From: an uncultured Planctomycetota bacterium
Lineage (GTDB): Bacteria > Planctomycetota > Planctomycetia > Isosphaerales > Isosphaeraceae
Assembly: GCA_963737655.1 (NCBI GenBank)
Contig: CAVTTN010000002.1
Coordinates: 2,976,001 to 3,040,000 of the forward strand
Direction of reading: 5' to 3'
Length of the DNA: 64,000 nucleotides
Position 1 is the first letter of the stretch. Every line of letters starts with the position of its first letter. Made by a program: the position numbers. Shown here one piece after another: positions 33,001 to 39,000 of the stretch.

Positions 33001-36000
33001 TGGTCGAGGACCCGTCCCAGGCGGATTTCCTCACCCGGTTCCTCCTGAGTCCCGAGCCCGGTCCCGCCGAGGTCCTGGTGATCCGCGAGGCCCTGGCCGA
33101 ATTCGGGCCCGAGGGCTCGGCCGAGCCGTTCCGCAAGGCCCTGGCAGCCGATCCCGGGGAGCTCGACGACGTCCAGCTCCGCGCGGCGGGCGTGCTCGCG
33201 GGCCTGGACCCCTCGGAGGCCGCCCGGGACGCGCTGGCCGGCCCCCTGGCTCGGAAGCTCGTGACCGAGAATCCGCTGCTCCTGGGGACCTGGTCCCAGG
33301 TGTTCCAGCCGGTCAGCCGCGGCCTGATCGAGCCCTTGCGGATGCTGTTCGCCGAGACGAGCCGACCCGAATCGCGCGACCGGGCTTTTCGGCTCCTCCT
33401 GGAGTTCATCGACCGGCCGGAAAACGCGAGCCACCCCGAGGACCTCGCGTCCCTGCTGATCGACGCCGATCCCGACCGGGCCCATCTCGTGATCCGACGG
33501 CTCGGCAGCCCCCTCGAACGGGCCCGTGCCGTCGCCGCCCTGGCCCCCCTGCTCGACGACGTGGCCCGGTTCGACGCCCCGAAGGCGGCCCGCCAGGGGA
33601 GGATCGCCACCGCCCTGTTCCTGCTGGGCGAGGCCGGGAGGGTCTGGCCCCTCTTCGCCCAGAGGGACGATCCGAGCGTCCGGACGGAGCTGGTCCACAA
33701 CCTCGCCCCCTATGGCGTGGATGTCTCGAAGGTCATGGGGCGGCTGAGGACCGAGCCCGACGCCTCGGCGCGGAGGGCCCTGCTGCTCAGCCTCGGCGGA
33801 TTCGCCCCCGACCGGATCGCCGCGCCGGCCCGTCGGGACTGGGCGGCCGACCTTCTCAAGCGATATCGGGCCGACTCCGATCCCGGGGTCCACTCGGCGA
33901 TCGGCTGGCTGCTCCGAACCCGTTGGGGACTCGCGACGGACGTGGAGACGGCCGACCACGAGCTCCAGTCGTCGCAGATCCCGGCCGACCGCGAATGGTT
34001 CGTGAACGGCCAGGGCCAGACCTATGCGATCGTCCGGGGGCCCCTGACGTTTCGGATGGGTTCGACGCCCCTGGCCGTCCCCGACCTCCAGCCGTCGGAG
34101 CCGGACCATCCCCGACGGCTCCCCCGGTCGTTCGCCATCGCCAATCGCGAAGTGACGATGCGAGAGTTCGGCCGGTTCCTCGACACCCGGCCTCCCGGGG
34201 TCACGGACAATCGCTCCGATCCCCTCTACAAATCGCTCGCCCCCGACTGCGCCGCCGCCGCGATGACCTGGTTCGAGGCCACGCGTTACTGCAACTGGTT
34301 GAGCGCCCAGGAAGGGCTGCCCGAAGACCAGTGGTGCTACCCCAGGGAGTTCGGGCCCGGCTCGTCCCTCCCCGCGGACTTCCTGGATCGGACCGGCTAT
34401 CGGCTGCCGACCGAGGCCGAATGGGAATTCGCGTGCCGGGCGGGCACGACCTCCGCGTACCCGTTCGGCCAGGCCGTCTCCTGGCTCCCGAACTATGCCT
34501 GGTTCGAGAAGCAGTCGGGCATGACCATGAAGCGAGTGGCCCAGCTCGAGCCCAATGACCTCGGCCTGTTCGACATACTGGGCAACGCCTATGAATGGGT
34601 CAATGACCCCCACGAGCCCTACCCGCTCGATCCCGCGGGCAAGCCGGTCCTGGACATCCTGAGGAACCTGAACTGTCCCGAGGATTTGGTCCGGGTGATC
34701 CGAGGAGGGGCCTATCCGCTGGCCTCGGCGTCGCTCCGCTCGGGCTATCGCTCGTTCGGCCTGAAGCCGTCCTTCCGATACCCCTATTTCGGCTTCCGGC
34801 CCGCCCGGACCCTGCCCTGAGCCGGGGGCATGCGTGGCCGGAGACGCGATCGTCTCCGCGATCTCGATTTTTCTCTGGCTTTCTCCCGATTGAGCAGGTC
34901 TATTTCATAACCTCCTGATGAGGGAGGCGTTTTCTCCATTTCGACCGTGAAAGCCCCGCCGAGTGAGGCCCGCCCCCGTGATGGAGACCGCCCCGGCTGG
35001 CCGAAGGTCGCCTGGCCCGCGGATCGAGACCACGCCGAGGTCGCTTGCCGCGCCCGGGCCCTTCGGGGATCGGTGCGACTCGCGGAAGTACTCGACGATC
35101 GGCGTCGAACGGACCATCCCTCCGGCCGAGACGATCCGTCGCGTCGCGCCCCTGCTCGCACGGATCGGCGTGACCCGGGTCGGCGAGGTCACCCATCTCG
35201 ACCGCAACGGCCTGCCGAACTTCGTCGCCGTGAGGCCCCGCGAGGCCGGCCGAGGCATCTCCTATTACAACGGCAAGGGGGCGACCCGGACCCAGGCGAA
35301 GGCCAGCGCCATGATGGAGGCGGTCGAACGCGTTAGCGCCGAGACGTGTGCTCTCCCCGTGATCCGATCGTCGTTCCGGCGGCTCCGCCGCGAGGCGGAC
35401 GCCATCGACCCGGAGGAGCTGCTCGCCCCGAGGGCCCGGAGCGGCCCTCCGGGAGAGGTCGAGCTCGAATGGGTGCTCGGCCAGGACGTGATCGCGGGAT
35501 ACCCCCGATACGTCCCTCGGAACGCCGTCGTTTCGCCGTATGATCCCTCCCCGGGGGCCGTGGCGCTCTGGGATTCGAGCACCAACGGGCTGGCCTCGGG
35601 CAACACCCGGGACGAGGCGCTCTGCCAGGCCCTCTGCGAGGTCATCGAGCGCGACGCGATGGCCGTCCAGCTCGCGAGCGGCCGGCTTCGCGGAGGCATC
35701 GAGGCGGTCCTGGAGGGACTCGGCGTCGGGGGCCCGCCCTCAGATCGGCCGATTCCGCCTCGGATCGACTTCGCCACCCTCCCTCCGCGAGCCGCCCGGC
35801 TCGGGAGGCGTCTCCGAGGGGCGGGGCTGGCGATCTACCTCCGCGACATCACCTCGGATGTCGGCGTGGCGACGATCCATTGCGCCCTGGCCGAGCCTCG
35901 CGGGGGCGGGCGATTCGCGATCCACGGCGGATACGGCTGCCATCCCGACGCCCGGGTGGCGGTCGTCCGCGCGCTGACCGAGGCGGCCCAGAGCCGCTCC

Positions 36001-39000
36001 GGGTGCATCCAGGGAGGGCGCGAAGACCTGCCGGACTTCGCCGGGGGGCCGCCTCCCCGGATCGACCCCGACGAGGTCTTCGGGCAGGGCGAGCGACGGG
36101 CCTTCCGGGACGTTCGGTCCGTCGAGCATCCCCGGGTCGCCGACGATGTGTCCTGGCTGATCGGCCGGCTCGAGGCGGCCGGGTTCCGGCAGGCGGTCGT
36201 GGTCGAGCTGACCCGGGCCGACCTGGGCGTGCCGGTCGTCCGGGTCGTCGTCCCCCGGGCGGAGACCTGGGCCGCGTTCCATCTCCATTCCCGCCGAGGG
36301 ACGCTCGGCCCGAGAGCGATCCACCGACTCACCCGGGGCATCCACGACCATGAATGAGCGCGTGACCCTTTGCAGCGCCACCCTGGGCGAGGACGGCAAG
36401 CGGGAACCGCCCCTCGGCCCGCTCTACATCGCCGGGGCCCTGGAGTCCCTGGGCGTCGAGGTCGATTTCCGCGACTATCAGCTCGCCCCCGGGGCCGACG
36501 GCTTCTCCAGCCGGCATCTCGCCGAATTCCTGGGGGATCATGCCGAGATCGTCGCCGTCTCGTGCTTCGTGGACATGCTCCCGGTGGTGATCGACGCGAC
36601 CCGGAGGCTCCGGGAGGCGAACCCCGAGACCACCATCGTCCTGGGAGGCCCCGGACCCAGCGCCTCGGCCGACCGGATCCTGGAGCTCTATCCCTGGATC
36701 GACGCCGTGGTCCGGGGCGAGGGGGAAGAGACCATCTCCGAATGGTGGCTCCGAAGGCGGGCCGGTCGGCACGACCTGGAACCGATCGCGGGCATGAGCG
36801 ACCGGCGAGGAAGCCAGATCGTGGTCGGCGAGGCCCGGACCCGGCTCCTCGATCTCGAATCGCTCGCGCGGCCCGCCTACCACCTCGCCGAGTGGGACGC
36901 CTACGGATACGCCCGGATCATCACCACCCGCGGCTGCGCCTATCGCTGTTCGTTCTGCGACGTGACCGCGCTCTGGGGCAACCGGAGCGTCTACCGGGAC
37001 GTGGACGCGGTGATCGACGAGATGGAGTTCCTCCGGGACGTCCACGGCAAGAGCGTGATCACCATCGTCGATGACACCTTCGTCCAGGATCGCAAGCGGG
37101 TGCGGGCCTTCTGCGAACGGCTTTTGGAGCGACGGAGCGGGATCGCCTGGTCGTGCTTCTCCCGGATCAACCTGATGTCCCGCGACCTGGCCGAGACGAT
37201 GGCCGAGGCGGGGTGCCGATCGGTCCTCTACGGGATCGATTCGGGGTCGCCGGCCGTCCTGGCGAGGACTCACAAGATGGTCCGCGCCGAGAGCGTCGAG
37301 CCCGTGATCGAGTACTCGGCGGAGGTCTTCGATTTCGTCGAGGCGTCGTTCATCTGGGGCTACCCATTCGAGGACCTCGACGATTTCCGGATGACGCTGG
37401 ACCTGGCCGCGAGGGTATCTCGATGGGCGCCCCGGGTGAACGTCCAGCTCCACCGGCTCAGCCCGTTGCCGAACTCGCCGATCTATCGGGAATATCCCAG
37501 CCCTCTGCTCGAGCCCGATCCGCAGGACCGGCCCTGGCTCCTGCTCCCGGCCGTCCTGCTGGAACCCCGGGCCGAGGAGATCGGCCGACTCGTCCGCGCC
37601 GCCCCGGACGTCTATCCGGGCTTCTTCACCCTGCCGACCCCTGACGAGGCCGAGAAGCGCCGGCTGATGGGCAAGATCAAGCGGACCCTGGATCGGACGA
37701 TCGGCGCCACCCTGTTCGACCCGGAGACGGCCCGGCTCCTCGACGAGGACGCGCCCGAGGTCGAACGCTCGCTGTTCGACGCCGAGACGGACTCCAGCGG
37801 GCGGCTCGGGGTCGGGCTGGCGATCAGCTTCTTCCGCCGGAGCCGTCGCCGACGAGGGGCCGGGTGCGACCCGCTCCTCGGGGTTCGCGGGCCGTCGCTG
37901 GTCCGGGAGAGGAACGGATGAGCTCGGAGGCCCCCGACGATCGGCCCTGCGTGTTCCTCGGCCCGAGCCTCCCCCGGGATCAGGCTCGATCGTTGATCGA
38001 TGCCGAGTTCCGCCCCCCGATCCGCCGGGGAGACCTCGCGGCCCTGGACCCACGCCGCGTCGTGGTGATCCTCGACGGCGAGTTCGACCAGAGCTTCGCC
38101 GTCTCGCCCAAGGAGATCCTCCGCCTCCTCGACCTCGGGACGACGGTGGTGGGGGCGGCGAGCATGGGGGCGATCCGCGCGGCGGAGCTGGCCGAGGTCG
38201 GGATGACCGGGCTGGGCTGGGTCTTCTCCGCCTATCGAGAGGGGCGGATCGTGGGGGATGACGAGGTGGCCCTCCGCTTCTGTCCGTTCGGCCTCCACGC
38301 CCTGACCGTCCCTCTGGTGAACGTCCGCCGCTGGCTCGGTCGCCTCGAAGAGGCCGAGCTGATCGACGCCTTGACCTCGGCCCGCGTCTTGAGGCGGGCC
38401 CGCCAGGTCTTCTTCGCCGATCGGACGCCGGAGAGGCTCGACGAGGTGATCGCGACGGCCCTCGGGCCCGAACGATCCGGGCGAATCCGTGGTCTCGGCC
38501 TCGCCGAGATCGGCGACGTGAAGGCGGAGGACGCCAGGTCCGCCCTCCGGAGCGTCGCAAGTTGGGGCAAGGTTCCTCAATCCTAGGGAGTTCCGCGAAA
38601 TGAGTCCAGCCACCGCGTCCGACGGCCTGAAAGAACTCATCGGGAGGGCGCTCGTCGATAGCGACTATCGCGACCTGCTCTTCGACGACCGCCCCCGAGC
38701 CTTGCAGGACTACGAGCTCTCGGAGATCGACCTGGCCGCGCTCGATCGCCTGGATCGCGAGACGCTCGAAGCCCAGGCCGAGAAGGTCGGCTCCGGCGAG
38801 CTGGTGATCATGATCGCGCCCGAGCCGCGCCTCCGCCCGAACCGACCCCCGAGCCGCCGCCGGAACCGGAGCCGGAACCCGAGCCCAAGCCCGAGCCGCC
38901 TCCCAAGCCCGACGAAGACTGAGTTCGCTCGGCCTGCCGACTTGGGTAGGGTCCGCTGTTGCGGACCTCTTCGATTTCAGTTTTGTAGGGTCCGCTCTTG

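What a model noticed while it worked through the whole genome (the two positions that open the first line are those of the whole stretch)
34981..38935. Uncalled NHLP-type precursor completes a YcaO / B12-radical-SAM / TfuA peptide-modification operon (new RiPP family)
Right after the operon ycaO (g02576) - B12-binding radical SAM (g02577) - tfuA (g02578) lies an open frame that the gene caller missed (C2:3014600 onward), whose first 63 residues match the Os1348/NHLP leader family over its cut-off. I read this as the precursor of an undescribed family of ribosomal peptides whose short beta-strand-like C-terminal core (GELVIMI here; xLTIKVVISKSF-type in other phyla) is backbone-thioamidated by the McrA-type YcaO/TfuA pair and C-methylated by the B12 radical SAM enzyme, in Isosphaeraceae with an added Pro/Glu-rich tail. 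New would be a thioamidated, proteusin-like RiPP class that is spread over at least five phyla and has no characterised member.
Evidence so far: Call 55: uncalled ORF (77 aa tested) hits NF038399 NH_RiPP_Os17 at 46 bits (cut-off 40), E 4e-12; YcaO best hit is TIGR03266 'McrA-glycine thioamidation' (263 bits, under its cut 365), TfuA best hit NF033432 'TfuA-related McrA-glycine thioamidation' (176 bits, under cut 235); radical SAM best hit ApyD (167 bits, far under cut 750) so no known orthologue. Call 56: Pfam Frankia_peptide 34.5 bits (under cut 48), B12-binding + Radical_SAM. Calls 57-59,64: 11 loci with a 53-85% identical rSAM (Planctomycetota, Acidobacteriota, Verrucomicrobiota, Pseudonocardia, Aliiroseovarius); of the 9 loci with enough flank, 7 keep the order ycaO-rSAM-tfuA-precursor and 2 have ycaO-rSAM-precursor-second ycaO-t [...]
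(Added by a program. Inside this text positions count along the whole contig: contig position 2,976,001 is position 1 of the stretch shown here. "Call 12" and the like, gene names such as g00115 and contig names such as C1 are that model's own, and its searches are not shown. The text may have been shortened before it was handed on; [...] marks where a part breaks off. The agent that wrote the report below was given it as the finding of a first reader that could run no searches.)

Follow-up and report, generated by a model that had tools for sequence, protein, structure and literature searches.

The report
Uncharacterised thioamide peptide operon, precursor frame-broken
A planctomycete carries a compact four-gene set, shared with a few bacteria from five phyla, that most likely makes a small peptide with sulfur put into its backbone and extra methyl groups; nobody has studied its product, and in this assembly the peptide gene has a one-base frame break in its tail.

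Summary
Window 34963-38922 (+) carries ycaO, a B12-binding radical SAM gene, tfuA and a small ORF starting at 38600. The genes overlap or sit 13 nt apart.

The ORF's first 76 residues are an Os1348-family NHLP-clan leader plus a short hydrophobic core (ELVIMIA). After APEP the frame breaks. The Pro/Glu tail and its stop (38920-38922) lie in another frame, and four relatives encode that tail in one frame.

The same gene set occurs in 11 further loci from Planctomycetota, Acidobacteriota, Verrucomicrobiota, Actinomycetota and Pseudomonadota. Only these four genes are conserved across them. A three-chain model docks the precursor on YcaO: score 0.77, best control 0.00.

My reading is an uncharacterised family of YcaO/TfuA thioamidated peptides, probably also C-methylated. 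The chemistry is inferred, not shown. Similar TfuA clusters with B12 radical SAM genes are already listed in a genome survey (PMC8120280), so this is a new variant of a known kind. An earlier scan finding on other DNA (e1-1201980) described an analogous but different cluster. Whether the frame break is an assembly error or a real lesion stays open.

The parts
34821..34962 (+). Intergenic region upstream of ycaO; likely promoter region (not shown)
   Evidence: GC drops to 0.636 in 34500-34999. No sigma-70-like site was found. Sequence read.
34963..36357 (+). ycaO, 464 aa from GTG 34963 (alternative ATG at 34981). ATP-dependent backbone-activating enzyme, thioamide-forming type by nearest relatives.
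   Evidence: PF02624 247 bits; TIGR03266 263.3 bits (under cut-off 365). Nearest solved structures are MJ1094 6pe3/6peu (117 bits) and M. kandleri YcaO 6ci7 (76 bits). 42-75% identical orthologues in 10 loci.
36350..37921 (+). B12-binding (class B) radical SAM enzyme, 523 aa; putative C-methyltransferase
   Evidence: PF02310 68.3 and PF04055 65.4 bits. Best NCBIfam hit is ApyD at 166.6 bits, far under 750. C196, C200 and C203 are invariant in 10 of 10 orthologues. Nearest solved structures are 9ccb, TokK 7kdx and CysS 9n1b, all 56 bits or less. The ATG overlaps the ycaO stop.
37864..38586 (+). tfuA, 240 aa from GTG 37864. The more likely start is ATG 37918, which overlaps the rSAM stop as ATGA.
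   Evidence: PF07812 124.6 bits; NF033432 175.3 bits (under cut-off 235.2). PDB 6xp8 TfuA 101 bits. Junction read.
38600..38827 (+). Precursor, first frame: 76 aa. Os1348-family NHLP-clan leader (about residues 10-63) followed by the core ELVIMIA and PEP.
   Evidence: NF038399 46.0 bits (cut-off 40). PDB 6lk7 (Os1348) 38 bits against the family profile. 64-76% identical to L003, L004, L005 and P0008. Single copy in the genome.
38828..38832 (+). Frame break. Against the closest relative the window has 5 extra bases (CGCCT) here, so the reading frame shifts.
   Evidence: DNA alignment; translations in two frames.
38830..38922 (+). Pro/Glu-rich tail of the precursor in the shifted frame (30 codons), with stop at 38920-38922
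   Evidence: Equivalent Pro-rich tails are in frame in L003/G048, L004, L005 and P0008.
38946..39058 (.). REP-like element: three copies of a 26-nt hairpin unit (two direct, one inverted). It marks the end of the operon; the first copy scores as a terminator-like hairpin.
   Evidence: The unit occurs 65 times in the genome (33 forward, 32 reverse; reversed-pattern control 0), mostly as convergent pairs. The frame-1 ORF runs straight through it.

Best explanation
This is a four-gene, translationally coupled operon for a ribosomally made, post-translationally modified peptide.

The small ORF encodes a folded helical leader of the Os1348/NHLP clan, followed by a short amphipathic core (hydrophobic-x-I/V-x-V/I). 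The leader docks on YcaO (modelled). YcaO activates one or more backbone amides of the core with ATP. TfuA supplies sulfide equivalents, probably from a ThiS-like thiocarboxylate, giving a thioamide (inferred). The B12-dependent radical SAM enzyme adds one or more methyl groups to unactivated carbons, most plausibly on the invariant aliphatic residues of the core (inferred).

In the window's lineage the core is followed by a Pro-rich tail. Elsewhere the peptide ends in ...F. No protease or exporter travels with the operon, so release and export are unknown.

In this assembly the precursor has a one-base frame break in the tail. I put about 60% on an assembly error and about 40% on a real lesion.
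For: Shown by sequence:
- Gene order, 8-nt and 4-nt overlaps, and an SD-like GGGAG.
- Family hits.
- Leader family: 45 of 45 precursors match NF038399 at E<=0.001.
- Radical SAM cysteines are invariant in 10 of 10 orthologues.

Conservation:
- The same four genes occur in 9 of 9 loci with enough flank, in two orders. The 2 cut loci keep what fits.
- In an all-against-all blastp of ORFs of 90 aa or more from 12 stretches, no other gene is shared by more than 5 loci.
- The rSAM clade has 100/100 support and a long stem.
- None of the 64 more distant rSAM loci (42% identity or less) has tfuA or the precursor.

Substrate:
- Three-chain model (YcaO, TfuA, precursor as partner): ipSAE 0.77, best of 3 controls 0.00. 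In the tool's calibration this mark was reached by 116 of 157 solved complexes and 2 of 215 mismatched pairs. The runs agree in at least 58% of contacts and the partner's pLDDT is at least 79.
- In that model, leader residues 3-22 and 43-60 sit on YcaO residues 237-257 (full-length numbering). Core residues 62-75 sit on invariant YcaO motifs.

Chemistry by analogy:
- The nearest solved YcaOs are the two thioamide-forming methanogen enzymes, and TfuA is present.
- A 2026 paper states that thioamide-forming YcaOs outside high-sulfide habitats tend to use a ThiS-like thiocarboxylate carrier and the TfuA hydrolase (PMC13063428, Discussion passage).
- No Cys/Ser/Thr is conserved in the core: position 69 is Thr in 23 of 45, and no core Cys occurs. 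Azoline formation therefore cannot be the shared reaction.
- The nearest characterised rSAM relatives are C-methyltransferases: ApyD makes beta-methyltyrosine (bioRxiv 10.1101/2023.10.30.564719, passages); TokK and CysS are the closest named solved structures.
Against: - No chemistry was measured.
- All three enzymes score under the equivalog cut-offs.
- No protease or transporter is conserved.
- The precursor is frame-broken here.
- In the one other genome of the same family that has the locus (G048), rSAM and tfuA are missing and ycaO is frame-broken. The system may therefore be decaying in this lineage.
- The AF2 monomer model gives the core no structure (pLDDT under 50; mean 66.4).
- The complex model is a model. 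It used my own shallow alignments (12, 10 and 45 rows) and three chains, unlike the tool's calibration. Solved YcaO-peptide complexes exist, so part of the score may come from memory.
Confidence: 0.62

Rival explanations
1. Same operon, but a dead one in this organism. The frame break is real, and the locus is decaying in this lineage.
For: - The frame break sits in the precursor.
- G048 has the same synteny (kinase-FGE gene, ycaO, precursor) but has lost the stretch matching window 36360-38587 (rSAM + tfuA), and its ycaO is split in two frames. Its best rSAM match elsewhere in that genome is only 29% identical.
- Only 1 of 60 other genomes searched in the family has the precursor.
Against: - ycaO, rSAM and tfuA are full length and align end to end with orthologues.
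- The break lies after the conserved core, in a C/G-rich repeat where long-read assemblies often drop bases.
- The genome has 3 contigs but only 87.74% marker completeness, while most other genomes with 5 contigs or fewer in the family table score 93-99% (exceptions: 85% and 58%).
- Four relatives have the tail in frame.
Confidence: 0.25
2. The product is not a leader-cleaved secreted antibiotic. It is a small modified protein that keeps its helical domain, as thioamides occur in MCR and in ribosomal protein uL16. The Lys-rich N-terminal and Pro-rich C-terminal tails would then be functional appendages.
For: - No protease or exporter is conserved within about 6 kb in any locus.
- 20 of 45 precursors carry a Lys/Arg-rich extension of 30 aa or more before the leader, and one of them hits a histone-H1-like model.
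- 5 of 45 carry Pro-rich tails.
- The family namesake Os1348 was detected by western blot at about 8.9 kDa (its full length) and crystallised as a stable dimer (PMC7726476, passages).
- Thioamides on proteins are documented (PMC13063428, abstract and passage).
Against: - Many members have an L-G/A-G-R motif just before the core, which resembles a double-glycine cleavage site.
- Processing genes of RiPP pathways can lie elsewhere in the genome.
- There are no data on the mature form.
Confidence: 0.2
3. The small ORF is not the substrate. The YcaO/TfuA/rSAM trio modifies some other protein, and the ORF is a bystander or a regulator.
For: Housekeeping YcaOs act on proteins encoded elsewhere (uL16 in E. 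coli, McrA in methanogens).
Against: - The ORF is adjacent in 10 of 10 loci whose downstream flank is present, across five phyla.
- It belongs to a RiPP leader family.
- The docking model passes with controls at 0.00.
Confidence: 0.06
4. The YcaO makes something other than a thioamide (an azoline or an amidine macrocycle), or the rSAM is not a methyltransferase.
For: Both enzymes score under the equivalog cut-offs. B12-rSAM chemistry is diverse.
Against: - tfuA is conserved in 10 of 10 loci that reach that far.
- No nucleophilic side chain is conserved in the core.
- The nearest solved YcaOs are thioamide-forming.
Confidence: 0.12

Closest known systems
YcaO/TfuA pair for thioglycine in methyl-coenzyme M reductase (TIGR03266, NF033432; structures 6pe3/6peu, 6ci7, 6xp8)
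   Same: These are the best-scoring models and the nearest solved structures for both proteins. The presumed reaction is the same: ATP-dependent replacement of a backbone oxygen by sulfur.
   Different: Scores are under both equivalog cut-offs. The hosts are bacteria without MCR. The substrate is a dedicated small precursor with a leader. YcaO residues 236-273, which hold the modelled leader-binding helix, do not align to MJ1094.
Thioamidated RiPP clusters found by genome mining (Malit et al. 2021, PMC8120280; Santos-Aberturas et al. 2019, PMC6511847)
   Same: Adjacent ycaO and tfuA with a small precursor. Malit et al. note B12-binding rSAM genes in Bradyrhizobium (CCRG-2 precursor) and Desulforegula (Nif11 precursor) clusters (passages).
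   Different: This precursor family, core and rSAM clade are not mentioned in the passages read. The held supplements have no hit for Aliiroseovarius, Pseudonocardia, Isosphaera or Singulisphaera. 'Network 7' of the 2019 paper is a Cys-rich Micromonospora NHLP family, not this one. Parts of those supplements were cut when stored.
Proteusins / polytheonamides (NHLP leader, B12-rSAM C-methyltransferases PoyB/PoyC; TIGR03975)
   Same: A nitrile-hydratase-like leader clan, and a B12-rSAM enzyme expected to methylate aliphatic side chains.
   Different: TIGR03975 scores only 82.3 bits (cut-off 281.85). No epimerase or other tailoring gene is conserved. YcaO/TfuA are added. The core is 7-14 residues, not about 50. 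The Poy details are recalled, apart from the PoyC reference title seen.
Cluster OS3 of Pseudomonas sp. Os17 (Os1348 precursor; PDB 6lk7; PMC7726476)
   Same: The leader belongs to the same NCBIfam family, NF038399.
   Different: The partner enzymes are entirely different: a GNAT, a HEXXH protein and a SagB-type dehydrogenase next to efflux genes. There is no YcaO, TfuA or rSAM.
ApyD of aminopyruvatide biosynthesis (NF050148)
   Same: Best-scoring NCBIfam model for the rSAM. ApyD is a B12-rSAM that C-methylates a residue near the C-terminus of a RiPP precursor.
   Different: 166.6 bits against a cut-off of 750. The match covers profile positions 82-457 of 645, so ApyD's RRE-containing N-terminus and its C-terminus are not matched. 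The precursor and pathway differ.
Earlier scan finding e1-1201980 (YcaO + Nif11 precursor + TfuA + three B12-rSAM genes, another genome)
   Same: Same enzyme types combined in an uncharacterised cluster.
   Different: Different precursor family, more enzymes, and export genes. A sequence look-up with this rSAM found no look-alike in earlier windows.

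Membership tests
NF038399 Os1348 family NHLP clan protein (leader) | Score at or above the curated cut-off of 40 bits | tested here: met
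   46.0 bits, E 4e-12. 45 of 45 family members match at E<=0.001.
Pfam PF14407 Frankia_peptide | Score at or above the gathering cut-off of 48 bits | tested here: not met
   34.5 bits for the window's ORF. 38 of the 40 database relatives carry a precomputed PF14407 hit.
YcaO superfamily (PF02624) | Full-length YcaO ATP-binding domain | tested here: met
   247 bits, profile positions 1-324 of 325. The conserved motifs are invariant in 12 of 12 orthologues.
TIGR03266 McrA-glycine thioamidation YcaO (equivalog) | Score at or above 365 bits | tested here: not met
   263.3 bits.
NF033432 TfuA-related McrA-glycine thioamidation protein (equivalog) | Score at or above 235.2 bits | tested here: not met
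   175.3 bits. The general TfuA domain PF07812 is met at 124.6 bits.
Class B (B12-binding) radical SAM enzymes | N-terminal B12-binding domain plus radical SAM core with CxxxCxxC | tested here: met
   PF02310 68.3 and PF04055 65.4 bits. C196/C200/C203 are invariant in 10 of 10.
ApyD (NF050148) and PoyB/C-type RiPP C-methyltransferases (TIGR03975) | Score at or above 750 and 281.85 bits respectively | tested here: not met
   166.6 and 82.3 bits.
Thioamidated RiPP (functional class) | A thioamide in the mature peptide | not testable with these tools
   Needs mass spectrometry or NMR. Only the adjacent ycaO-tfuA pair and the modelled docking are in hand.
Azoline-forming TOMM / LAP | Cys/Ser/Thr in the core, with an E1-like or dehydrogenase partner | tested here: not met
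   No core position is always Cys/Ser/Thr, and Thr occurs at position 69 in 23 of 45. No further conserved gene.
Proteusins | NHLP-type leader together with a radical SAM epimerase and further tailoring genes | tested here: inconclusive
   The leader is NHLP clan by NCBIfam's naming. The family profile matches nitrile hydratase alpha only at E 0.038. No second rSAM or other tailoring gene is conserved.
Thioamitides (thioviridamide-like) | YcaO/TfuA plus the genes for the AviMeCys macrocycle and further tailoring (recalled definition) | tested here: inconclusive
   No genes beyond the four are conserved in the flanks, and no core Cys occurs. I did not scan for the individual thioamitide enzymes.

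The most novel reading that the evidence does not exclude
The operon makes not a cleaved antibiotic but a small modified protein. A helical NHLP-like domain would carry a thioamidated, C-methylated amphipathic beta-strand at its end, with lineage-specific polycationic (Lys-rich N-terminal) or Pro-rich (C-terminal) appendages. That would be a third natural context for protein backbone thioamides, after MCR and uL16, spread between phyla as a self-contained four-gene module.

A bolder sub-reading: the ...I-x-I-x-F-COOH end (36 of 45 end in Phe) mimics the C-terminal strand of outer-membrane beta-barrel proteins and targets their assembly or surveillance machinery. The resemblance is recalled and was not tested.
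Probability: 0.2. Interest if true: 0.7.

Novelty: new variant of a known kind. Interest (0 to 1): 0.45.

Why it matters
Backbone thioamides are rare in nature, and only a few thioamidated peptide families have a known product. This family pairs the thioamide machinery with a B12 radical SAM enzyme on a very short core. 17 of 45 precursors end in the same KVVISKSF although their leaders are only 31-88% identical. The module needs just four genes, and two cultured, non-pathogenic strains carry it: Aliiroseovarius halocynthiae and Pseudonocardia adelaidensis. That makes it a cheap target for heterologous expression. Such work could yield a new thioamide/C-methyl peptide scaffold and a YcaO with a modelled, testable leader-binding helix. 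It is still one of hundreds of uncharacterised TfuA-type clusters, so its value is that of a well-documented lead.

Tried and rejected
- Sequencing runs to settle the frame break: none was listed. No RNA holder was listed either.
- Programmed frameshift: rejected. Four relatives encode the tail in one frame, and the window differs by a 5-nt stretch at the break.
- The long frame-1 ORF (38600-40156, 518 aa) as a real protein: rejected. It runs through a REP-like element present 65 times in the genome and into a convergent beta-propeller gene.
- Further conserved cluster genes (protease, exporter, sulfur carrier): none found by all-against-all blastp of the flanks.
- Ser/Thr kinase genes lie within 6 kb in WIN, L004, L007, L008, L011 and L012. 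They have different architectures, are absent from the other loci, and such kinases are common in these phyla. I did not count them as part of the system.
- More distant rSAM relatives as part of the family: rejected.
- AF2 monomer of a family member (P0004): the leader is helical, but the core has no confident structure.
- Literature: 9 full-text searches found no paper on a ycaO / B12-rSAM / tfuA / Os1348-type cluster. Subscription journals are not covered, and bioRxiv supplements are closed.
- Counting broken genes in the window to gauge assembly quality gave candidates only: a helicase in three ORFs, two overlapping giant ORFs and a partial NUDIX. There is no proof either way.

Full report
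**What is there.**
On the + strand the window carries four tightly packed genes:
- ycaO, 34963 (GTG; ATG at 34981) to 36357
- a B12-binding radical SAM gene, 36350-37921
- tfuA, 37864 or 37918 to 38586
- a small ORF starting at ATG 38600

The ycaO stop and the rSAM start overlap as ATGAATGA. The rSAM stop and the likely tfuA start overlap as ATGA. The small ORF follows tfuA after 13 nt, with a GGGAG 9 nt upstream of its ATG. Upstream of ycaO lies a 140-nt stretch of lower GC.

- YcaO: TIGR03266 263.3 bits (cut-off 365); PF02624 247 bits.
- rSAM: best hit ApyD 166.6 bits (cut-off 750), with B12-binding and Radical_SAM Pfam domains.
- TfuA: NF033432 175.3 bits (cut-off 235.2).
- Small ORF: NF038399 46.0 bits (cut-off 40); Frankia_peptide 34.5 bits (cut-off 48).

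**The frame break.**
Frame 1 reads MSPATASDGLKELIGRALVD...EKVGSGELVIMIAPEP and then stays open until 40156. The frame that starts at 38602 reads PPPEPTPEPPPEPEPEPEPKPEPPPKPDED with a stop at 38920-38922.

Four relatives encode such a Pro-rich tail in a single frame: G048/L003 (103 aa), L004 (111 aa), L005 (104 aa) and the metagenomic protein P0008 (108 aa). In a DNA alignment the window has 5 extra bases right after APEP compared with G048. One missing base therefore explains the break.

Twenty-three bases after the shifted-frame stop begins a REP-like element, three copies of a 26-nt hairpin unit at 38946-39058. The first copy scores as terminator-like. The unit occurs 65 times in the genome, against 0 for a reversed-pattern control. 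The frame-1 ORF runs through this element and into a convergent beta-propeller gene. The true gene end is therefore 38922.

I could not decide between assembly error and real lesion, because no sequencing run was listed. Three points favour an assembly error:
- The three enzymes are intact.
- The genome has 3 contigs but only 87.74% marker completeness, while most other genomes with 5 contigs or fewer in the family table score 93-99% (exceptions: 85% and 58%).

One point favours decay. G048 is the only other genome among the 60 searched in the family that has the locus. It keeps the same neighbours but lacks the stretch matching window 36360-38587 (rSAM + tfuA), and its ycaO is split into two frames.

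**Relatives.**
A scan of one genome for each of 185,579 species with the rSAM gave 75 loci. Eleven have a 53-85% identical rSAM; the others are 42% identical or less.

| Loci | Gene order (tblastn with the four window proteins) |
|---|---|
| L004, L007, L008, L009, L011, L012, L014 | ycaO-rSAM-tfuA-precursor |
| L010, L013 | ycaO-rSAM-precursor-ycaO-tfuA |
| L005 | cut at the 5' end; keeps rSAM-tfuA-precursor |
| L006 | cut at the 3' end; keeps ycaO-rSAM |

By their record titles these loci come from Planctomycetota, Acidobacteriota, Verrucomicrobiota, Pseudonocardia and Aliiroseovarius. A Roseibium protein appears.

Among the 64 distant rSAM loci, none has tfuA or the precursor, and 5 have a distant YcaO. 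In a tree of 14 rows (L013 left out because its rSAM is split) the 11 family rSAMs form a 100/100 clade on a long stem. Inside that clade an Alloacidobacterium sequence pairs with a Verrucomicrobiia sequence (98/99), and the two planctomycete lineages do not group together. The module has therefore moved between phyla.

An all-against-all comparison of flanking ORFs found no further gene shared by more than 5 loci. In particular there is no conserved protease, exporter or sulfur carrier.

**The precursor family.**
A profile search of 5.8 billion proteins gave 39 proteins at E<=5e-18, then a gap to 4.8e-4. NCBI already names some of them 'Os1348 family NHLP clan protein'. All 45 precursors I collected match NF038399.

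The family profile matches the crystal structure of Os1348 (6lk7) at 38 bits. An AF2 model of one member shows five helices at residues 11-69 and an unstructured core (mean pLDDT 66.4).

Three alternating positions in the core are always hydrophobic:
- position 68: L/I/V/W/M/F
- position 70: I/V/L
- position 72: V/I

No position is always Cys, Ser or Thr. Thirty-six of 45 end in Phe, four end in F plus 3-5 residues, and five (the window's type) continue into a Pro-rich tail. Twenty of 45 carry a Lys/Arg-rich N-terminal extension of 30 residues or more. Seventeen share the ending KVVISKSF although their leaders are only 31-88% identical.

**Mechanism.**
- Shown: gene content, coupling and conservation.
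- Modelled: a three-chain prediction (YcaO, TfuA, precursor as partner) scored 0.77 against a best control of 0.00. In the tool's calibration this mark was reached by 116 of 157 solved complexes and 2 of 215 mismatched pairs. The runs agree in at least 58% of contacts, and the partner's pLDDT is at least 79. My alignments and the three-chain set-up differ from that calibration. The leader lies on YcaO residues 237-257, a conserved helix (AVxxVLxxIG) inside a stretch that does not align to the methanogen enzyme MJ1094. The core lies on invariant YcaO motifs. No confident contact to TfuA was listed.
- Inferred, thioamidation: the nearest solved YcaOs are the two thioamide-forming methanogen enzymes. 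tfuA is always present. The core has no side chain that could form an azoline.
- Inferred, sulfur supply: TfuA and a ThiS-like thiocarboxylate, as stated in PMC13063428 (passage).
- Inferred, C-methylation: the rSAM is a class B enzyme with invariant CxxxCxxC. Its nearest characterised relatives are C-methyltransferases: ApyD, and TokK and CysS. The similarity is low, and other B12-rSAM chemistries exist.

**Comparison with what is known.**
The leader family's namesake, Os1348 of Pseudomonas sp. Os17, sits in a cluster with quite different enzymes: a GNAT, a HEXXH protein and a SagB-type dehydrogenase (PMC7726476; abstract and passages).

Two genome surveys list many uncharacterised YcaO/TfuA clusters. 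These include some with B12-binding rSAM genes and CCRG-2 or Nif11 precursors (PMC8120280, passages) and an NHLP 'Network 7', which is a Cys-rich Micromonospora family (PMC6511847, passages and supplement). Neither mentions this family in what I could read.

Nine full-text searches found no paper on it. An earlier scan finding on other DNA (e1-1201980) describes an analogous but different cluster. A sequence look-up with this rSAM found nothing.

**Verdict.**
This is a real, rare, horizontally spread four-gene module with an uncharacterised product. It recombines known enzyme types on a new precursor family, so I rate it a new variant of a known kind. Interest is moderate: it is a well-supported and cheap-to-test lead, not a surprise in principle.

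Noticed in passing
window 38946-39058, and genome-wide: A 23-26-nt hairpin unit (GGGTCCGC-N4-GCGGACCTCTT) occurs 65 times in the genome (33 forward, 32 reverse; control 0), mostly as convergent pairs about 41 nt apart. It is a REP-like intergenic repeat family.
   Followed up: partly
L079 (G048:C1:1160000-1179999), positions 5106-10718: A genome of the same family but another genus keeps the kinase-FGE gene, ycaO and the precursor in the same order, but lacks rSAM and tfuA between them. Its ycaO is split in two frames. Its precursor is intact (103 aa).
   Followed up: partly
window 31365-34820 (+); L004 1535-4444; L079 5106-8533: A 1151-aa Ser/Thr kinase fused to an FGE-sulfatase domain lies directly upstream of ycaO and is syntenic in the three planctomycete loci. 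Kinase-domain genes also lie next to the operon in L007, L012 (directly downstream; 167 bits to each other) and L011. L008 has a RamC_N-kinase-LanC lanthipeptide-synthetase-like gene upstream.
   Followed up: partly
L010 7494-8906 and L013 8071-9389: Two acidobacterial loci carry a second ycaO paralogue (about 50-55% identical to the window's) between the precursor and tfuA. A GAF-domain gene lies in their flanks (upstream in L010, downstream in L013).
   Followed up: no
family precursors P0002, P0003, P0009-P0012, P0014-P0017, P0019, P0021, P0022, P0024, P0026, P0029, P0036-P0039: Twenty of 45 precursors start with a Lys/Ala-rich, histone-H1-like extension of 30-69 residues before the leader. 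This is unusual for a RiPP leader.
   Followed up: partly
window 24233-27934 (-): Three consecutive ORFs carry ResIII/SNF2, Helicase_C and NOV_C domains, as if one helicase gene were broken by one frame change and one in-frame stop. A Rhodopirellula-type DDE transposase (365 bits) lies next to it at 28475-29455.
   Followed up: no
window 4342-20678 (+): Two giant ORFs (3526 and 2511 codons, stop to stop) overlap by about 1.7 kb in different frames and have no Pfam hit. This may be one gene of about 5000 codons with a frame break.
   Followed up: no
window 55979-57986 (+): A partial NUDIX ORF (profile positions 5-67 of 134) is followed, with overlap, by a TIR_2 + NB-ARC protein. It looks like a defence-type gene, possibly frame-broken.
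   Followed up: no
window 43374-46427 and 47128-51524 (+): A CotH-kinase/DUF7133 protein, then a PSCyt1-PSCyt2-PSD1 protein with EF-hands followed by a DUF1501 protein, the usual planctomycete pair.
   Followed up: no
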